IMG/VR virus record: IMGVR_UViG_3300049060_000012
Coordinates: 1-40,618 of that record
DNA from: a virus
Taxonomy: Duplodnaviria > Caudoviricetes
Direction: 5' to 3' (one strand)
Length of the DNA stretch: 40,618 nucleotides
The notes beneath the pieces are model-generated. The model was not told where the DNA came from and ran no database searches. It saw only the letters and a list, made by a program, of their open reading frames with translations. Each line of letters starts with the position of its first letter. The stretch's first letter is position 1. This document shows positions 4,332-33,432 of the stretch, piece after piece. Made by a program: the position numbers and the translations under genes.

Positions 4332-5792
4332 TCACATCGCTCCTAAGCGTAAATGCCCCGGCTGTTCTACCAGGGCGCCAGCCTTGGGTTCTATCCCCAA
4401 GGGGATCACGTTTCGCTGCCCATCCTGCAAGGCTAAATGGGTGTGGGGAGTTGGCTTCAGCAGCATCATGACTCGTTGAGTTGCTGCTTCAATTGTACGC
4501 CGCCAATCGCCAGCCCACATCACATGCTCGGCCGGATGGAACGGGATGCCGGCGTGGTACTTCCAACAATCCATCGGCCCGTGCATCGCGATCACTTTCG
4601 TGCCCAATGCACCAGCCAGATGCACAGCAGCAGTTGGCACCGCGACCACAAGATCGAGGGATGCCACCAGCGCCGCCGTGTCGTCGTAGTCGGCCGTGCG
4701 CGTCGCATACGGGTACTCATGCACCTTCGGATGTTGCTCATCGCCCTTGTACTGCAGCGAGACGAAATGCGCATCGAGCGCCAGCAGCGATTCCCACTGC
4801 TCGAGGCCGGCATGCCGGAATTTCTCACCGGTCTTCGGGATGCCGCCTGACCACGCGATACCGATCGCCGGCTTGCCTTTCTTCGCCCATAGCGAGCGCC
4901 ACATCTCGACCCGCTCTGCGTCCGCAGTCAGGTATGGCTGTTGCGGACAGTCGGCCGGGCTCTTGCGGAAGAACTCGGCGAGCTGGCCGATCGGGAACGA
5001 GGCGTCGATTGCCTGATCCTCCTTCGCCCACTTCAGGTGTTTCTTGTTACGCGTGCCGTAGACGGTGACTTGCGGGAATGAGCGCCGGTACAGCGTTTCA
5101 AGCCGCTTGTCGCACTCGACGATGACCTTGCGGCACACGCGCGCCGCGTCTTCGATCATCGAGGCAAAGCACACTTCATCGCCAATGCCCTGCTCCGCGT
5201 ACAGCACGACCGCCTGACCTGGCGTGCCGTCCCACTCGGGCTCGCCGCTGTACTGCACTTTCTTGCGCCAGTCGGTGCCGAGCGTGTTGCGGTAGTTCTT
5301 CCAGCCCTCCTCCCACTCACCGGCCGCGAGCTGGCAGAAGCCGAGATTCGATAGCGCGGTCTTCGACTGCGGGTCGAGCTTGAGCGCCTTTTCGATGTGC
5401 CGGCGCGCTTTCTCGAATTCGCCGTGGTCGATGCACATCGCCGCGAGGTTGCCGTAGCACATCACGCGTGTCGTTTCGCGATTGGTGATCGACAGCGCGC
5501 GGGCATACGCCCGCTCGGCATCGGCGCGCTTCCACAGGTCCTCGGCACAACGGCCGAAGTTCAGCCAGTTGCTGCCCTCGGTCGGCGCCATGTCCTTCAC
5601 GAGCTTGAACAGGTTGTACGCAACCGGCGTATTGCCTGCCTTCTCGTAGATGTGGGCCGCGATGCCGATCGCCCGCGGATCATCCGGGTGCTCGAGCATT
5701 TCCTTCTTGAGCAGATCCATCGCCTGATCGAGTTCGCCCTTGTCCCACAGGGCGACGCACTGGGTCAGCGTTTCAGCGTTTGCCGAGGTCAT
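4332..5792 (-). CDS. TPR-repeat + GT-B (GT9-like) glycosyltransferase
   Basis: N-terminal TPR-like helical repeats; YAEQGIGDEV, IGIAWSGG, FVSLQY and DYDDTAALVASLDLVVAVPTAAVHLAGALG motifs. Confidence 0.85.
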   Translation of the reverse strand: MTSANAETLTQCVALWDKGELDQAMDLLKKEMLEHPDDPRAIGIAAHIYEKAGNTPVAYNLFKLVKDMAPTEGSNWLNFGRCAEDLWKRADAERAYARALSITNRETTRVMCYGNLAAMCIDHGEFEKARRHIEKALKLDPQSKTALSNLGFCQLAAGEWEEGWKNYRNTLGTDWRKKVQYSGEPEWDGTPGQAVVLYAEQGIGDEVCFASMIEDAARVCRKVIVECDKRLETLYRRSFPQVTVYGTRNKKHLKWAKEDQAIDASFPIGQLAEFFRKSPADCPQQPYLTADAERVEMWRSLWAKKGKPAIGIAWSGGIPKTGEKFRHAGLEQWESLLALDAHFVSLQYKGDEQHPKVHEYPYATRTADYDDTAALVASLDLVVAVPTAAVHLAGALGTKVIAMHGPMDCWKYHAGIPFHPAEHVMWAGDWRRTIEAATQRVMMLLKPTPHTHLALQDGQRNVIPLGIEPKAGALVEQPGHLRLGAM

Positions 5793-6132
5793 GAACAATC
5801 GCCAGCTTCTTGCCTTCGTTCTTCTGCGTGCACTTTAGATACGGAAAATTCGTGTTGATCTCCTGCAACACGCGGTCGATGTGCCGCCCGTCCTCGACGT
5901 TGATTCCCTTCGCACGCATCTGGAGCATGAAGATCGGCGGAATCTTCGCGTACAGCCACCACGACTCTTTGATGCCCTTGTCAGTGAGTCCGTCGCGCGC
6001 CAGAGCCTTGTTGTAGTCGAGCAGCGCCTCAACGTCCTGCGTGCGATGGAACGTCACGTTACCGGTCGCCTCGTCGTACTCCATGTCGGTACGGATGCCG
6101 GTCTGAGGATCATACTCGAAGAACTCAGGCAA
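5773..6132 (-). CDS. Hypothetical phage protein downstream of MCP
   Basis: 119 aa; TTG start with GAGGA RBS; overlaps the next gene. Confidence 0.7.
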   Translation of the reverse strand: MPEFFEYDPQTGIRTDMEYDEATGNVTFHRTQDVEALLDYNKALARDGLTDKGIKESWWLYAKIPPIFMLQMRAKGINVEDGRHIDRVLQEINTNFPYLKCTQKNEGKKLAIVHDLGKR

Positions 6133-6270: not shown

Positions 6271-8488
6271 TTACGAGATTGCCACGACCTTGGAATTTGC
6301 TTTCCAATTTCGTGCGACCAAGCACCATTCTCCGATCAGCTGGAACTTCTCGGCATCGCCCGTCTTCGCGAGCTTGCGCTTCTGGATCTTGCGCAGATAC
6401 CGAACGGCCCAGTAGTCGGGGTCCAGACACAGGACGACGCTGGACCGCATATAGCGATGCAGAATCACCTGGTGCTTGCCGAAGTCCGACACGTACACGT
6501 TCGCGGCGCCGATGATCGATGCCTGCGCGCTCTTGTCGACGTCGACAAAGCGAGTTGCGATACCGGTGAAGGTGTCGATGTACCCCTTGCCGATGGTGCC
6601 GGTCAGGATCACGCGCGGATCGCCACCGTCAGACCACGCTGCCTCCAGCGCGAAGTTGAGATCCGGCGCCGTGAGCGGCGCCAGCGTCGTGCCATCGGTC
6701 GGCGCTACGCCAGCCGTCCCGGAAGTCAGCGGCGCAGTCGTCGCCGATGCGGTCGTGGTCGACAGCACCACGTGCGAGGACTCCGCAGACGATGCGGTCG
6801 CATCGCCGATCCACGACTCCATGCCAGCCGTCGAGCGGCCCGTACCGGCGCCGCCGATCGTGCTGATGCCGTTCTGCGTGATGCGGGTTTCCATATCCAA
6901 ACCCCATCACCACTTGTGCTGGGCTCTTTATCCCAGCTCTGAGCTTTCACTCAGGATCGGACTATATCTTCGTCCTATTGCTAGGACGTCGCGCGCTCGT
7001 GGAGCTTCATAGCCCGTGGTGGGCCGTATGCTCTAGTCTCTACACCTTCACCGCATTACTGCGGCGCTTGGCTCGGGATTACCCGCGTTGGGCTTCCCCG
7101 AATTCACGCGATGTTTACTCGCTACTTACGCAGCGAGGGCGCAATATGTATTACGCTTCAGCTCGCGCATCTTCACCATAGCGCCGCGTGCGAGTTCGGA
7201 CTTGCGCCCGGCCTTGTTCACGGCCTCCAGGGTGTCGGATGCAAGGAAGTCCTTCGAGCTGATCTGCAGGTAGCTCGCGTACCGAGCCGGCGCGGTGAGT
7301 GACGCATACGAGGCGTCATCGCCTTCGATTCGGATGTTGGTGTTCGACGGCGCCGCGAGTTCCTGCGCGAGCCATTCGGTATAGGTCGCCGACGCGTCCT
7401 CGCGATCGAGGTTCGTCATCGCCCAGGTGTCCTCCGGAAAGAGGTCGAAGATTACCGATGTGTTATCGCGCGGCTCTTTATCCGCGCATCTGCAGCTCTC
7501 GCTGCAGTCCAGACTACATCTTCACCTGTCGGTGTCGGGGGCTCGTGGGGCTGTCATAGTCCGTTCTGGACCGTATGCCCTAGTCGTTGAACCTTCAACG
7601 CATTCCTGCGCTGCTTGGCTGCTGATTGCCCAATCCTTGCGATTGTTACCTTTCGGTACGCAAGGCTCTAAGGGGTTTCCAGCAATTCACCCGATTGCTT
7701 GTGGTGTTCCGCGAAATGACAGCGCTCGCAAAGTGCTCGACCGTTTAACGGGTCGTATCGTCCTTCAGGATATTCGGCAAACTCTTTCACATGATGTGCA
7801 TGCAGTCTGATTCGATGACCGCAGTGCCCGCACATGCTTCCTTGCTCTAATCCGCATCCTTCGCATTTCCAATCCGCTTTGGTGAGCACCGCAAGCCGCC
7901 AATCGTGGAAGGCTTTGCGTGACCTGCCTAGCTTATTTGCTGTCGAGATTCCGCCGCGCCAGTTTGGGTTTTTAGAGCCAATCTGTCGCCCGACACGAAC
8001 TCGACTCAGAGCCAGCCTATGCTCAGTCGTTTTTGGCTTGCCGCGCATTCTATCGCCGCGGCTGATACCGCTAATTCCATGCTCCTTAAGGCGCATGAAA
8101 ACGACAGTTTCGCCAACGCCGTAGTGCTGCGCGATCCGATCCATCGACAGCTCCTTATACAGATCAAGAAGCTCTGCCTTTGGCGGATCGAATCTGCGCT
8201 GCCTCTTGGAGTTCCTGATGCCCCAAGTGCGAAGCCGGTAGTACACAGCTTCCGGTGTTACTCCGTACCTTACGCCGATCTGCTTTCCGCTCATCTTCTT
8301 GATGAGCGAATCCAACTTCCCCCTAGTAAGGGATTGCCACTCTGCTTTCACTGTCTGAAGTTCCGCGCTAACGCCACTTCAGACTATTGTCCTCTATTCG
8401 AGAGGACTTATCAATCTGACAAGTCCTCGCGGATACCGCCTGCGGTACCTACGCCGACTGTCGTAGTCGTGCCTGAAATCACAGCCAT
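6271..8488 (-). CDS. Major capsid protein (SU10-like/DUF5309 type), spliced: join(8488-8414, 7455-7153, 6897-6271), 334 aa
   Basis: Exon 1 MAVISG...GGIREDLSD, exon 2 VIFDLFPEDTW...MRELKR, exon 3 DMETRITQN...VVAIS; exons are 75, 303 and 627 nt and join in frame; follows the scaffold gene with a GGAG RBS; YVSDFG and LAKTGDAEK motifs. Confidence 0.9.
6898..7152 (-). ncRNA. Group I intron 2 in MCP (255 nt, no homing endonuclease)
   Basis: Exon ends in U (CGT) and intron ends in G; P1 GCGUAAU/AUUGCGC with a U-G pair at the splice site; P10 CAUAUU pairs with the 3' exon GAUAUG; core GAAUUCGGGGAA, AAUCCCGAGCC, AGAGACUA, GAAGAUAUAGUC. Confidence 0.93.
7456..8413 (-). ncRNA. Group I intron 1 in MCP (958 nt) carrying an HNH ORF
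   Basis: Exon ends in GAT and intron ends ...CATCG; core GAAUUGCUGGAA, AAUCAGCAGCC, GUUCAACGACUA, GAAGAUGUAGUC at about 7690-7508; candidate P1 UCAGAU/GUCUGA; boundaries could shift by 1 nt. Confidence 0.9.
7668..8351 (-). CDS. Intron-encoded HNH homing endonuclease (two HTH-like repeats, NUMOD3-like segment, HNH)
   Basis: CEGCG...LHAHHVK...NGRALCERCH; NPNWRGG motif; C-terminus (SGELLETP) runs into intron P3/P4. Confidence 0.9.
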   Translation of the reverse strand: MKAEWQSLTRGKLDSLIKKMSGKQIGVRYGVTPEAVYYRLRTWGIRNSKRQRRFDPPKAELLDLYKELSMDRIAQHYGVGETVVFMRLKEHGISGISRGDRMRGKPKTTEHRLALSRVRVGRQIGSKNPNWRGGISTANKLGRSRKAFHDWRLAVLTKADWKCEGCGLEQGSMCGHCGHRIRLHAHHVKEFAEYPEGRYDPLNGRALCERCHFAEHHKQSGELLETP

Positions 8489-8497
8489 TTGCTGCTC

Positions 8498-9394
8498 CTA
8501 GAATCGGTTCATCAGCTCGCGCTCTATGGCCTTCGCCTTCTGCGCGGAGCTGAGCCCCGGATTGTTCAGTTGCTTCTTCAGGGCGAGCTTGTCCTTCACC
8601 TGCTGCGGCATCGGGTTAGATGAGCCCGGCTTCACAGTCGGTGCGATCTGCACCTTGCCCTGGACTTTCTGAGCCTGGAGCTTGTCGTACTGCTGCGCCT
8701 TCCAGATGGTCTTCACCATCCGCGGGTCAGCCAGCGTATCGATCTCGGCAGCGGTGTAGCCCTCGTTCAGCGCGTATTCGCGCATCGCGGCTTTCGCTTC
8801 CGGTCCCCAGCCCTTGATGGATTTCGCGACAGCTTCCTGCGCCTTGCTCTGCGCCTCGTTGGCGAGTGCAATTTGCTCCTGCTGCCACGTGTTCCATTTG
8901 GAGTTGACGTTGCGGCTCAGTCCTTCGCGTTCTTCCTTCAGGTTGTCGACTTGCGTCTTCACCTGCCACAGCTGCTCGGAGGTCATGCCGGTTACATCGA
9001 TCAATTTCCACTGCTTGATGCTGAAATCGATTTCCTGCATCCGGGCGATGTCGTCCTTCACGGCTGCGTTGAACTTACGCTCGGACTCGAACGCCTTGTA
9101 CGCCAACTGCTGCTGCTCGATGGCCTTCTTCTGTTCCGCCACCTCAGTCGTCTTACGCGTGTAATCGGACTGCGCCATGAGCGCATCTTTCAGCTCTGGC
9201 GGGACCTGGTACGTCTTGCCGTTGAACTCGGTCTCGACGAATTCCGGGGTCGGCGTTTCCGATTCCGGCTCAGGAGTGTTGTCCACCTGCTCCGGTTGTT
9301 CGGGCTGCTGCGTCTCAGGCTGATCCGTCTCGAACTGTGCGGCCAATCGATCTTCCATCGATGGCGATTCCATTGCTGGCTGTTCGCCTGCCAT
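8498..9394 (-). CDS. Scaffolding protein
   Basis: Acidic N-terminus, DYTRKT motif, coiled coil; lies immediately before MCP. Confidence 0.85.
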   Translation of the reverse strand: MAGEQPAMESPSMEDRLAAQFETDQPETQQPEQPEQVDNTPEPESETPTPEFVETEFNGKTYQVPPELKDALMAQSDYTRKTTEVAEQKKAIEQQQLAYKAFESERKFNAAVKDDIARMQEIDFSIKQWKLIDVTGMTSEQLWQVKTQVDNLKEEREGLSRNVNSKWNTWQQEQIALANEAQSKAQEAVAKSIKGWGPEAKAAMREYALNEGYTAAEIDTLADPRMVKTIWKAQQYDKLQAQKVQGKVQIAPTVKPGSSNPMPQQVKDKLALKKQLNNPGLSSAQKAKAIERELMNRF

Positions 9395-9396
9395 AC

Positions 9397-9681
9397 CTAC
9401 CTAACCTTGAAGTCGCGCAGTGATGCGTCGCGCTTCTGTTGTGCGATCTGAAACTCGGCCACCTTGCCGTCGTTCAGTGTCGCGGTGAGATTCGCTTTCA
9501 CGTCCTGCAAAAGCTTGAGACACAGGCGGAGCTCGTGCAGCCCCTCCTGGTCGCGGATCGGTGTGCGCTCGATGGCGTTGAATATCGCCGTGCGCGTGTT
9601 CTCGAAAGCTGTCTTGAATTCTTCGTCGTTCAGGATGCGCTGCGCTTTCTCGGCGCGCGCGATCACTTCTGCTTCGCTCAT
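9397..9681 (-). CDS. Small head-module protein (MSEAEV...)
   Basis: Helical ~94 aa protein between portal and scaffold; ATG at 9681 is coupled to the upstream stop. Confidence 0.65.
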   Translation of the reverse strand: MSEAEVIARAEKAQRILNDEEFKTAFENTRTAIFNAIERTPIRDQEGLHELRLCLKLLQDVKANLTATLNDGKVAEFQIAQQKRDASLRDFKVR

Positions 9682-33227: not shown

Positions 33228-33432
33228 CTGTGTTGCTGTGCTACGTAAGCAGCACAACTAGGCGCTTTAAAGCACAGGTGTGCTGCGAATCGACCAGCGC
33301 GGCCGCGCTTAAGTGCTTGAAAATATGGCGTCCCCATGGGGATTCGAACCCCAGTTACCGCCGTGAAAGGGCGCTTGTTTCACGATTATCCACAGGTACT
33401 TGCGAAGGTGCCTGTGCTGTTTCTGTGCTGCC
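33228..33432. promoter_or_regulatory. attP arms: repeated TGTGCT-type arm sites and an IHF-like site
   Basis: TGTG(C/T)T/AGCACA repeats at 33229-33295; tandem CTGTGCTG at 33412-33430; TTTCAAGCACTTA (minus strand, 33310-33322) is one mismatch from WATCAANNNNTTR. Confidence 0.6.
33326..33373 (-). other. attP core: 48-bp 3' half of tRNA-Glu(TTC), including CCA
   Basis: Minus strand reads CGCCCTTTCACGGCGGTAACTGGGGTTCGAATCCCCATGGGGACGCCA; 5' half absent; about 100 bp after int; phage genes on both sides. Confidence 0.92.

What the first reader, a model, noticed from the sequence alone, without database searches (positions are those of the whole stretch)
8349..8428. Mutually exclusive hairpins at the 5' splice site of intron 1: possible switch linking translation, splicing and HNH expression
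Seen on the minus strand: (A) exon GAGGACUUGUCA pairs with intron UGAUAAGUCCUC (8428-8402, 12 bp), leaving only the last exon codon as the loop. (B) GUCUGAAGU/ACUUCAGAC (8384-8353, 9 bp) buries the candidate guide sequence and ends 1 nt before the HNH GUG. The alternative fold is P1 UCAGAU/GUCUGA with the U-G pair, plus inner hairpin GUCCUCU/AGAGGAC (8407-8389). The intron opens with in-frame tandem stops UGA UAA. Inference: A+B is a splicing-off, HNH-off state, and a ribosome terminating at the junction could melt A and favour P1, tying capsid mRNA splicing and nuclease synthesis to active late translation.
Basis: partly seen in the sequence, partly recalled or inferred. Interest (0 to 1): 0.7.

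Follow-up and report, generated by a model that had tools for sequence, protein, structure and literature searches.

The report
Splice guide doubles as nuclease lock
In a phage coat-protein gene, the guide sequence of a self-splicing intron is predicted also to pair with the start of the DNA-cutting gene inside that intron, a complementarity kept in most related introns, and it likely holds splicing off until that gene is fully transcribed and a ribosome has cleared the splice site, so each RNA would make coat protein or nuclease but not both.

Summary
All four stems are real; A+B is the predicted fold, about 9 kcal/mol below P1. They head a group I intron (8413-7456) in an SU10-type capsid gene. 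Among 30 introns at this site (29 relatives plus the window, 14 clusters), a B-type stem joining the guide to the HNH start region beats shuffled and swapped partners in 13 of 14 clusters; A wins the fold in only 4 of 30. For the window, P1 is predicted only when the exon is masked AND the P2 partner has been transcribed. With the real ORF, the splicing fold buries the HNH start deeper than B does (18 of 18), so 'P1 = nuclease on' is not supported; splicing and nuclease translation look mutually exclusive. Each ingredient has precedent (T4 ribosome chaperoning and RBS hairpins, DiGIR1 HEG-P1); I found no paper in which the guide itself is the repressor strand. All mechanism is computed, none measured. 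The scan has noted other capsid introns, not this arrangement.

The parts
8414..8488 (-). Capsid exon 1 (25 codons, ends REDLSD)
   Evidence: uninterrupted relatives continue REDLSD-VIFDL
7456..8413 (-). Group I intron 1 (958 nt), opens with in-frame UGA, ends in G
   Evidence: (RF00028, 63.4 bits at 7740-7490)
8402..8428 (-). Stem A: exon paired with intron 5' end; lineage-restricted trap
8389..8407 (-). Inner (L1) hairpin; its 3' arm 8394-8386 can also pair with exon 2 (P10 extension, 7 of 9 pairs)
8379..8384 (-). Guide (IGS) GUCUGA; pairs with 8419-8414 in P1 or with 8358-8353 in B
8353..8384 (-). Stem B: guide paired with the HNH start region, C opposite the guide G
8361..8377 (-). P2 5' strand (lies in the loop and upper stem of B; extension covers the GGA before the HNH start)
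7701..7716 (-). P2 3' strand, inside the last HNH codons (F-A-E-H-H)
7668..8351 (-). HNH endonuclease ORF (227 aa, GUG start) in loop L2, running into P2, P3 and P4 of the core
   Evidence: (PF01844)
8386..8414 (-). Sigma70-like site TTGATA-17-GACAAT across the splice site; predicted start near 8379; not family-wide
7153..7455 (-). Capsid exon 2
   Evidence: PF17236
6898..7152 (-). Group I intron 2, no ORF, ordinary local P1 and P2; used as a control
6271..6897 (-). Capsid exon 3

Best explanation
The intron's guide sequence is complementary both to the capsid exon (P1) and to the start region of the intron's own HNH gene (stem B), and B likely acts as a co-transcriptional lock that is predicted to give way to P1 only after the far end of the HNH gene has been transcribed and pairs back as P2 and, in this phage, after a ribosome has melted stem A. 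Step 1 (sequence, conserved): B forms as soon as it is made and dampens ribosome loading on HNH while the core, about 650 nt away, does not yet exist. Step 2 (predicted): the P2 partner strand binds in B's loop and displaces it; P1+P2 close the ORF into loop L2 and bury the HNH start. Step 3 (predicted for the window and 6 other introns of 19; known from T4): a ribosome on the 25-codon exon pulls exon sequence out of traps such as A, the inner hairpin catches the freed strand, and the stop codon keeps the ribosome out of the intron. Step 4 (inferred): if ribosomes do load on HNH first, they keep the ORF and P2-P4 open, B stays shut and the RNA serves as nuclease mRNA instead of being spliced. 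So the fold would divide transcripts between capsid and nuclease.
For: B: gain from pairing the guide beats dinucleotide shuffles and swapped 3' partners in 13 of 14 clusters each (p 0.0004); 25 of 30 gain at least 5 kcal/mol against 1 of 6 ORF-less introns (p 0.002); guide-flank positions -3 and -2 pair in 28 and 26 of 30 with several pair types; in the window the guide is not anti-SD-like yet the partner matches 9 of 9; C faces the guide G in 20 of 30, an inert decoy; removing the guide lowers RBS protection in 14 of 18. P2: same register in 25 of 25, beats swaps in 10 of 10 clusters (17 introns). Real-ORF folds: P1 in 12 of 19 naked, 19 of 19 exon-masked, B in 11 of 19 when the ORF is held open. 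Window series: B 0.9-1.0 at seven lengths from 8350 to 7730, P1 1.0 only at 7700 with the exon masked. HNH start harder to open in the splicing fold in 18 of 18 (median 18.6 vs 8.3 kcal/mol), above 56 of 60 control windows. Precedent in T4.
Against: All folding is equilibrium nearest-neighbour prediction without the core, tertiary docking or kinetics; masks are crude ribosome mimics and remove competitors by construction. Swapping the 5' arm gave only 9 of 14 clusters (p 0.07). B is weak or does not reach the RBS in the GUUCG clade (L133, L139, L213, L220) and in L112. 12 of 19 introns reach P1 without any mask. In the short-linker model the P1+P2 state was easier to open in 16 of 25, against step 2's burial. 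A lenient pairing measure was also positive in 3 of 6 ORF-less controls. Clusters are related, so p values are optimistic; only 6 controls.
Confidence: 0.5

Rival explanations
1. One reading: A+B is off for both splicing and HNH; a terminating ribosome melts A, P1 forms, and both splicing and nuclease synthesis switch on with late translation.
For: A+B is the dominant local fold; exon masking is required for P1 in the window; exon-L1 complementarity beats swaps in 13 of 14 clusters by a small margin (median 1.6 kcal/mol) and reaches 12 of 12 in L207; short-linker model opens the RBS from 14.4 to 7.9 kcal/mol in the window.
Against: Masking alone leaves B intact (P1 0.00); A dominates in 4 of 30; real-ORF folds close the HNH start in the P1 state in 18 of 18; the tandem stop is found in 1 of 30.
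Confidence: 0.12
2. By-product: the exon ends in SD-like codons, so the guide is anti-SD-like and pairs with any RBS; the inner hairpin mimics exon 2, which is itself complementary to exon 1, so A follows. The folded core resolves both stems and nothing is regulated.
For: Exon 1 and exon 2 pair at -7.2 kcal/mol in the window, the strongest of 22; the inner hairpin's 3' arm doubles as P10; 5'-arm swaps are only weakly worse; A is sporadic. For A alone this is about an even bet.
Against: B tracks non-SD changes (window GUCUGAAGU/ACUUCAGAC, L229, L146, L143, L136, L218) and beats swapped partners that also carry an SD; L207's A extends 8 nt beyond any P10 mimic.
Confidence: 0.15
3. T4-type control: B simply represses HNH on the long capsid transcript, and HNH is made from a short RNA started at an internal promoter just after the guide, which lacks B's 5' arm. 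Compatible with steps 1-3 of the best explanation; replaces step 4.
For: The only sigma70-like site in 7300-9500 lies at 8414-8386 (0.6 expected); such a transcript opens the RBS to 3.1 kcal/mol while short; TTGACA-like -35 boxes with fair -10 boxes in L126, L127, L129, L207; T4 I-TevI works so.
Against: The -10 box beats shuffles in only 7 of 14 clusters (p 0.63); TTGA is forced by U plus the stop codon; the window site matches 9 of 12.
Confidence: 0.15
4. B matters only after splicing: it disarms the freed guide and silences HNH in the excised intron.
For: With the exon removed the guide pairs downstream in 24 of 25 local folds; C opposite the guide G in 20 of 30.
Against: The same lenient measure is positive in 3 of 6 controls; with the real ORF the window's excised 5' part keeps P2, not B.
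Confidence: 0.08

Closest known systems
T4 td/nrdB/nrdD introns: RBS-sequestering hairpins of I-TevI, II, III (PMC2988022 passages; PMC3073962 section 8)
   Same: A hairpin hides the endonuclease RBS; the ORF's 3' end runs into the ribozyme core, so its translation harms splicing.
   Different: In T4 the hairpin is a separate stem in a peripheral loop relieved by a late promoter; here the repressor strand is the guide and P10 flank, the ORF lies in L2 ahead of the core, and the predicted release is the long-range P2.
Translation-dependent splicing of T4 introns (folding trap; PMC3017892, PMC3984707, PMC11878797 passages; primary papers not seen)
   Same: Exon-intron pairing blocks the native fold unless a ribosome runs over the upstream exon; in-frame stop just after the 5' splice site.
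   Different: Here the trap (A) is a local hairpin across the junction, recurring in only some lineages, and is not the sole lock.
DiGIR1 HEG-P1 versus DP2/P10 switch in Didymium Dir.S956-1 (PMC3679873 passages)
   Same: Endonuclease gene inserted at P2; a hairpin at the head of the endonuclease mRNA is mutually exclusive with P2/P10-type helices and forms first.
   Different: Eukaryotic twin-ribozyme with a lariat-capping ribozyme; the switch acts on that ribozyme, not on the splicing guide, and no RBS is involved.
c-di-GMP riboswitch-group I intron of Clostridioides difficile (PMC3984707, PMC3073962 passages)
   Same: Alternative stems near the 5' splice site control a group I intron and translation.
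   Different: No aptamer here (no Rfam riboswitch hit); inputs are predicted to be transcription progress and ribosomes.
Mycobacteriophage LittleE capsid-gene intron (PMC3706429, search listing only)
   Same: Spliced intron in a phage major capsid gene.
   Different: Different phage group; its 5' folding was not compared here.

Membership tests
Group I intron (RF00028) | U-G pair at the 5' splice site in P1 | tested here: met
   U8414-G8384; guide covaries with exon, native beats swaps in 14 of 14 clusters
Group I intron (RF00028) | Catalytic core and terminal G | tested here: met
   63.4 bits against cut-off 50; G7456 restores the capsid frame
Group I intron (RF00028) | Self-splicing activity | not testable with these tools
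   needs transcription assay
HNH homing endonuclease in an intron | HNH domain, intact ORF inside the intron | tested here: met
   PF01844 E 1e-6; 62 homologues
HNH homing endonuclease in an intron | Cleaves the intronless allele | not testable with these tools
   no assay
T4-type endonuclease repressor hairpin | Stem covers the endonuclease RBS | tested here: met
   predicted; guide adds protection in 14 of 18; weak in the GUUCG clade
T4-type endonuclease repressor hairpin | ORF overlaps the ribozyme core | tested here: met
   ORF end 7668 lies beyond P2 3' strand and P3 5' strand
T4-type endonuclease repressor hairpin | Internal promoter that omits the 5' arm | tested here: inconclusive
   site in window, not family-wide
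Ligand-sensing riboswitch-intron | Aptamer upstream of P1 | tested here: not met
   no Rfam riboswitch hit in the window; the upstream sequence is coding
DiGIR1-type twin-ribozyme switch | Lariat-capping ribozyme in the insertion | tested here: not met
   no such Rfam hit; only 33 nt between guide and ORF
DiGIR1-type twin-ribozyme switch | Endonuclease gene at P2 with a 5' hairpin exclusive of P2 | tested here: met
   predicted

The most novel reading that the evidence does not exclude
A widespread phage intron family uses its own splice guide as a bistable fate switch: each capsid transcript either snaps into P1+P2 and is spliced, or is captured by ribosomes on the nuclease gene, which keep the guide locked, with the strength of stem B setting the capsid-to-nuclease ratio and stem A adding a translation checkpoint in some lineages.
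Probability: 0.3. Interest if true: 0.72.

Novelty: new variant of a known kind. Interest (0 to 1): 0.55.

Why it matters
How an intron lets its nuclease be made without wrecking its own splicing is a recognised problem, answered so far mainly for T4 by a separate hairpin and a late promoter. Here a family of at least 30 capsid-gene introns appears to solve it with the guide itself and a helix that closes only when the nuclease gene is finished. Natural compensatory variants make the model directly testable, and the design is a compact transcription- and translation-gated ribozyme.

Tried and rejected
Alternative splice registers (one base later, or a guide near the core): rejected, they lose the U-G pair or the capsid residue seen in uninterrupted relatives. 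A as the true P1: its only G-U pair is in the wrong orientation and would delete codons. B as a circularisation site: U faces the guide G in only 5 of 30. Family-wide internal promoter: not supported. Fixed-register P10 covariation: not significant (5 of 9 clusters). MAFFT alignment of the B region did not put the 3' arms in register, so no alignment-based pair count was made; swap and shuffle tests were used instead. Annotated phages matched only the intron core, none over 16% of the query among the 30 of 60 listed. The single HNH as query found no useful locus; genome contigs gave one unrelated hit. No RNA holder was listed, which is no evidence. Dropped before counting: L076 (no ORF, moved to controls) and L231 (no comparable guide) of 32 junctions; L079 (missed by the pattern) and L211 (cut upstream) were not analysed; 5 of 30 contigs end before the core; one search ran 19 of 25 and a chosen 18 of 25. 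A search for further core-less mini-introns like L037 found only L037. PMC1797299 was not held.

Full report
Observation. RNAfold on 8445-8330 gives A+B at -43.7 kcal/mol, z -4.07, 1 of 200 shuffles as good. Forcing P1 plus the inner hairpin gives -34.8 and inner+B -41.0; P1 probability is 0.00 at 15, 25 and 37 C. A beats all 2000 shuffles of the intron start and B all 100 shuffles of its partner region.

Setting. The window is a 40.6-kb phage record with SU10-type portal and capsid genes. The capsid gene has two group I introns (RF00028, 63.4 and 73.1 bits). Joining 8488-8414, 7455-7153 and 6897-6271 gives an open capsid frame, and 40 of 42 related capsid loci run uninterrupted through the same motif (the other two carry introns at neighbouring sites). 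Intron 1 (8413-7456) holds a 227-aa HNH ORF (PF01844) with 62 homologues, many ending, like it, in codons that are also ribozyme core.

Comparison set. Loci were chosen by the HNH protein, not by the stems: 80 kept of 200 in metagenomes, 34 in viral contigs, 1 in genomes, plus L112 from an intron-core pattern. A pattern for the capsid motif followed by a stop gave 32 distinct junctions; since the pattern demands the stop, its presence is not a finding. L076 (no ORF) became a control and L231 was dropped, leaving 30 including the window, in 14 clusters at 65% identity of the 5' region. The guide covaries with the exon (GUCUGA, GUCCUC, GUCC, GUUCGA, GUUCGC), confirming P1.

The 8-17 nt after the guide pair with the last HNH codons just before P3, in the same register in 25 of 25 introns whose core is on the contig; native beats swapped partners in 10 of 10 clusters (17 introns, p 0.002). 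This is P2 with the ORF in its loop; the ORF-less intron L076 at the same site has a plain local P2. In the window it is 8377-8361 with 7716-7701. Its 5' strand lies in the loop and top of B, so B excludes P2 as well as P1.

B is conserved. The energy gained by letting the guide pair downstream beats dinucleotide shuffles in 13 of 14 clusters and swapped 3' partners, which also carry an SD, in 13 of 14 (p 0.0004 each); swapping the 5' arm gives only 9 of 14 (p 0.07). A cruder duplex test gave 12 of 14, a pair count 12 of 14 (p 0.017). Guide-flank positions -3 and -2 are paired in 28 and 26 of 30 with A-U, C-G, U-A and wobble types, on registers fitted per intron. 25 of 30 gain at least 5 kcal/mol against 1 of 6 ORF-less introns (p 0.002); a lenient probability measure did not separate the groups (24 of 25, 3 of 6 controls). 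C faces the guide G in 20 of 30, U in 5, nothing in 5. B is weak or far from the start in L112 and in the GUUCG clade. Clusters are related, so p values are optimistic.

A is sporadic. Five or more exon-L1 pairs win the local fold in 4 of 30 (window, L207, L134, L135). Upstream-exon complementarity beats shuffles at 3% or better in 7 of 30 and swaps in 13 of 14 clusters, but by a median of only 1.6 kcal/mol. L207 has a perfect 12-bp version with different codons, which argues for selection in some lineages. Against this, the window's exon 1 and exon 2 are themselves complementary (-7.2 kcal/mol, strongest of 22) and the inner hairpin's 3' arm pairs with exon 2 (7 of 9), so the lower half of A can follow from P10. 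The tandem stop occurs in 1 of 30; C follows the stop in 20 of 30 (that UGAC terminates slowly in E. coli is recalled, not checked).

What releases the lock. With a 12-nt linker in place of the ORF, P1 exceeds 0.5 in 7 (naked), 8 (P2 strand), 8 (exon masked) and 19 (both) of 25; the window gives 0.00, 0.00, 0.00, 1.00, and needs no more than 12 exon nt left free. With the real ORF (19 of 25 run in time), P1 forms in 12 naked and 19 exon-masked, P2 in 18; holding the ORF open returns B in 11. Lengthening the window RNA, B stays at 0.9-1.0 from 8350 to 7730 whether masked or not; at 7700 the masked RNA flips to P1 1.0 with U8376-A7702, the naked RNA keeps A. Masks remove competitors by construction, and no tertiary or kinetic terms are included.

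HNH output. Opening -15 to +3 around the start costs a median 8.3 kcal/mol early, 5.7 without the guide strand (guide adds over 0.5 in 14 of 18), and 18.6 in the exon-masked real-ORF fold (higher in 18 of 18), above 56 of 60 control windows in six introns. The short-linker model points the other way (easier in 16 of 25; 8 of 12 clusters, p 0.15). I trust the real-ORF folds more but long-range predictions are uncertain. On balance the splicing fold is nuclease-off, and B is a partial brake. A sigma70-like site spans the junction (8414-8386; 1 found, 0.6 expected) and would give an RNA lacking B's 5' arm (3.1 kcal/mol while short), but its -10 box is not enriched in the family (7 of 14; matrix recalled).

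Mechanism. Shown: the sequences, their complementarity and its conservation. Predicted: the order B, then P1+P2, and the need for exon clearing in 7 of 19. Inferred: ribosomes that load on HNH before P2 closes keep the ORF and core open and B shut, so a transcript becomes nuclease mRNA or spliced capsid mRNA.

Known work. PMC3073962 (passages; section 8 whole) and PMC2988022 (passages) describe RBS hairpins, ORF-core overlap, in-frame stops and ribosome chaperoning in T4; PMC3017892, PMC3984707 and PMC11878797 (passages) repeat translation dependence and the c-di-GMP intron; PMC3679873 (passages) gives the DiGIR1 HEG-P1 switch; PMC2532722 (abstract) trans-excision-splicing; PMC3706429 was seen only in a listing. 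The primary T4 and DiGIR1 papers were not seen, and no supplements were read. Eight answered searches listed no paper on a guide that represses the intron's own endonuclease or on this SU10 capsid family; the library lacks most subscription papers. Earlier scan notes concern other capsid introns; none on this genome or its look-alikes.

Verdict. A real, conserved alternative-fold system, a new variant of known intron-endonuclease control. Interest 0.55.

Noticed in passing
L037:1554-1624 (+): A related capsid gene has a 35-nt insert at RED|LED with group I ends but no core: 7-bp P1 with U-G, 6-bp P10 and terminal G, then a 36-nt exon identical in protein to an uninterrupted relative (12 of 12), then a full intron with its own P1 and P10. 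It would need the neighbouring core to be removed, like a natural trans-excision-splicing. Its guide is in the same register as the window's stem A. Only this contig matched two patterns in viral contigs. Possibly more novel than the finding itself.
   Followed up: partly
window 6898-7152 (-): Second, ORF-less group I intron in the same capsid gene with an ordinary P1, a 6-bp P10 and a local P2.
   Followed up: partly
window 8386-8414 (-): Sigma70-like site built partly from the exon's last U and the stop codon; similar boxes in L126, L127, L129, L207.
   Followed up: yes
L041:1754-2489, L076, L100: Further group I introns at three or more nearby sites in the conserved capsid N-terminal motif; L041 and L037 carry an ORF further 3' in the core instead of in L2.
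   Followed up: partly
L134, L135 (guide region): Stem B mimics the splice site exactly (GGAU|U, U opposite the guide G) at the UUG start; circularisation there would create a GUG start in frame.
   Followed up: no
first intron codon of 30 introns: C follows the stop codon in 20 of 30 (10 of 14 cluster representatives), a context recalled as slow to terminate.
   Followed up: no
L046 (-): Capsid-like gene with two introns, the first apparently holding an HNH-like ORF on the opposite strand ahead of the core.
   Followed up: no
window 33326-33399 (-): tRNA-Glu(TTC) gene.
   Followed up: no
window 4332-5798 (-): TPR plus family 9 glycosyltransferase-like gene two genes after the capsid gene.
   Followed up: no
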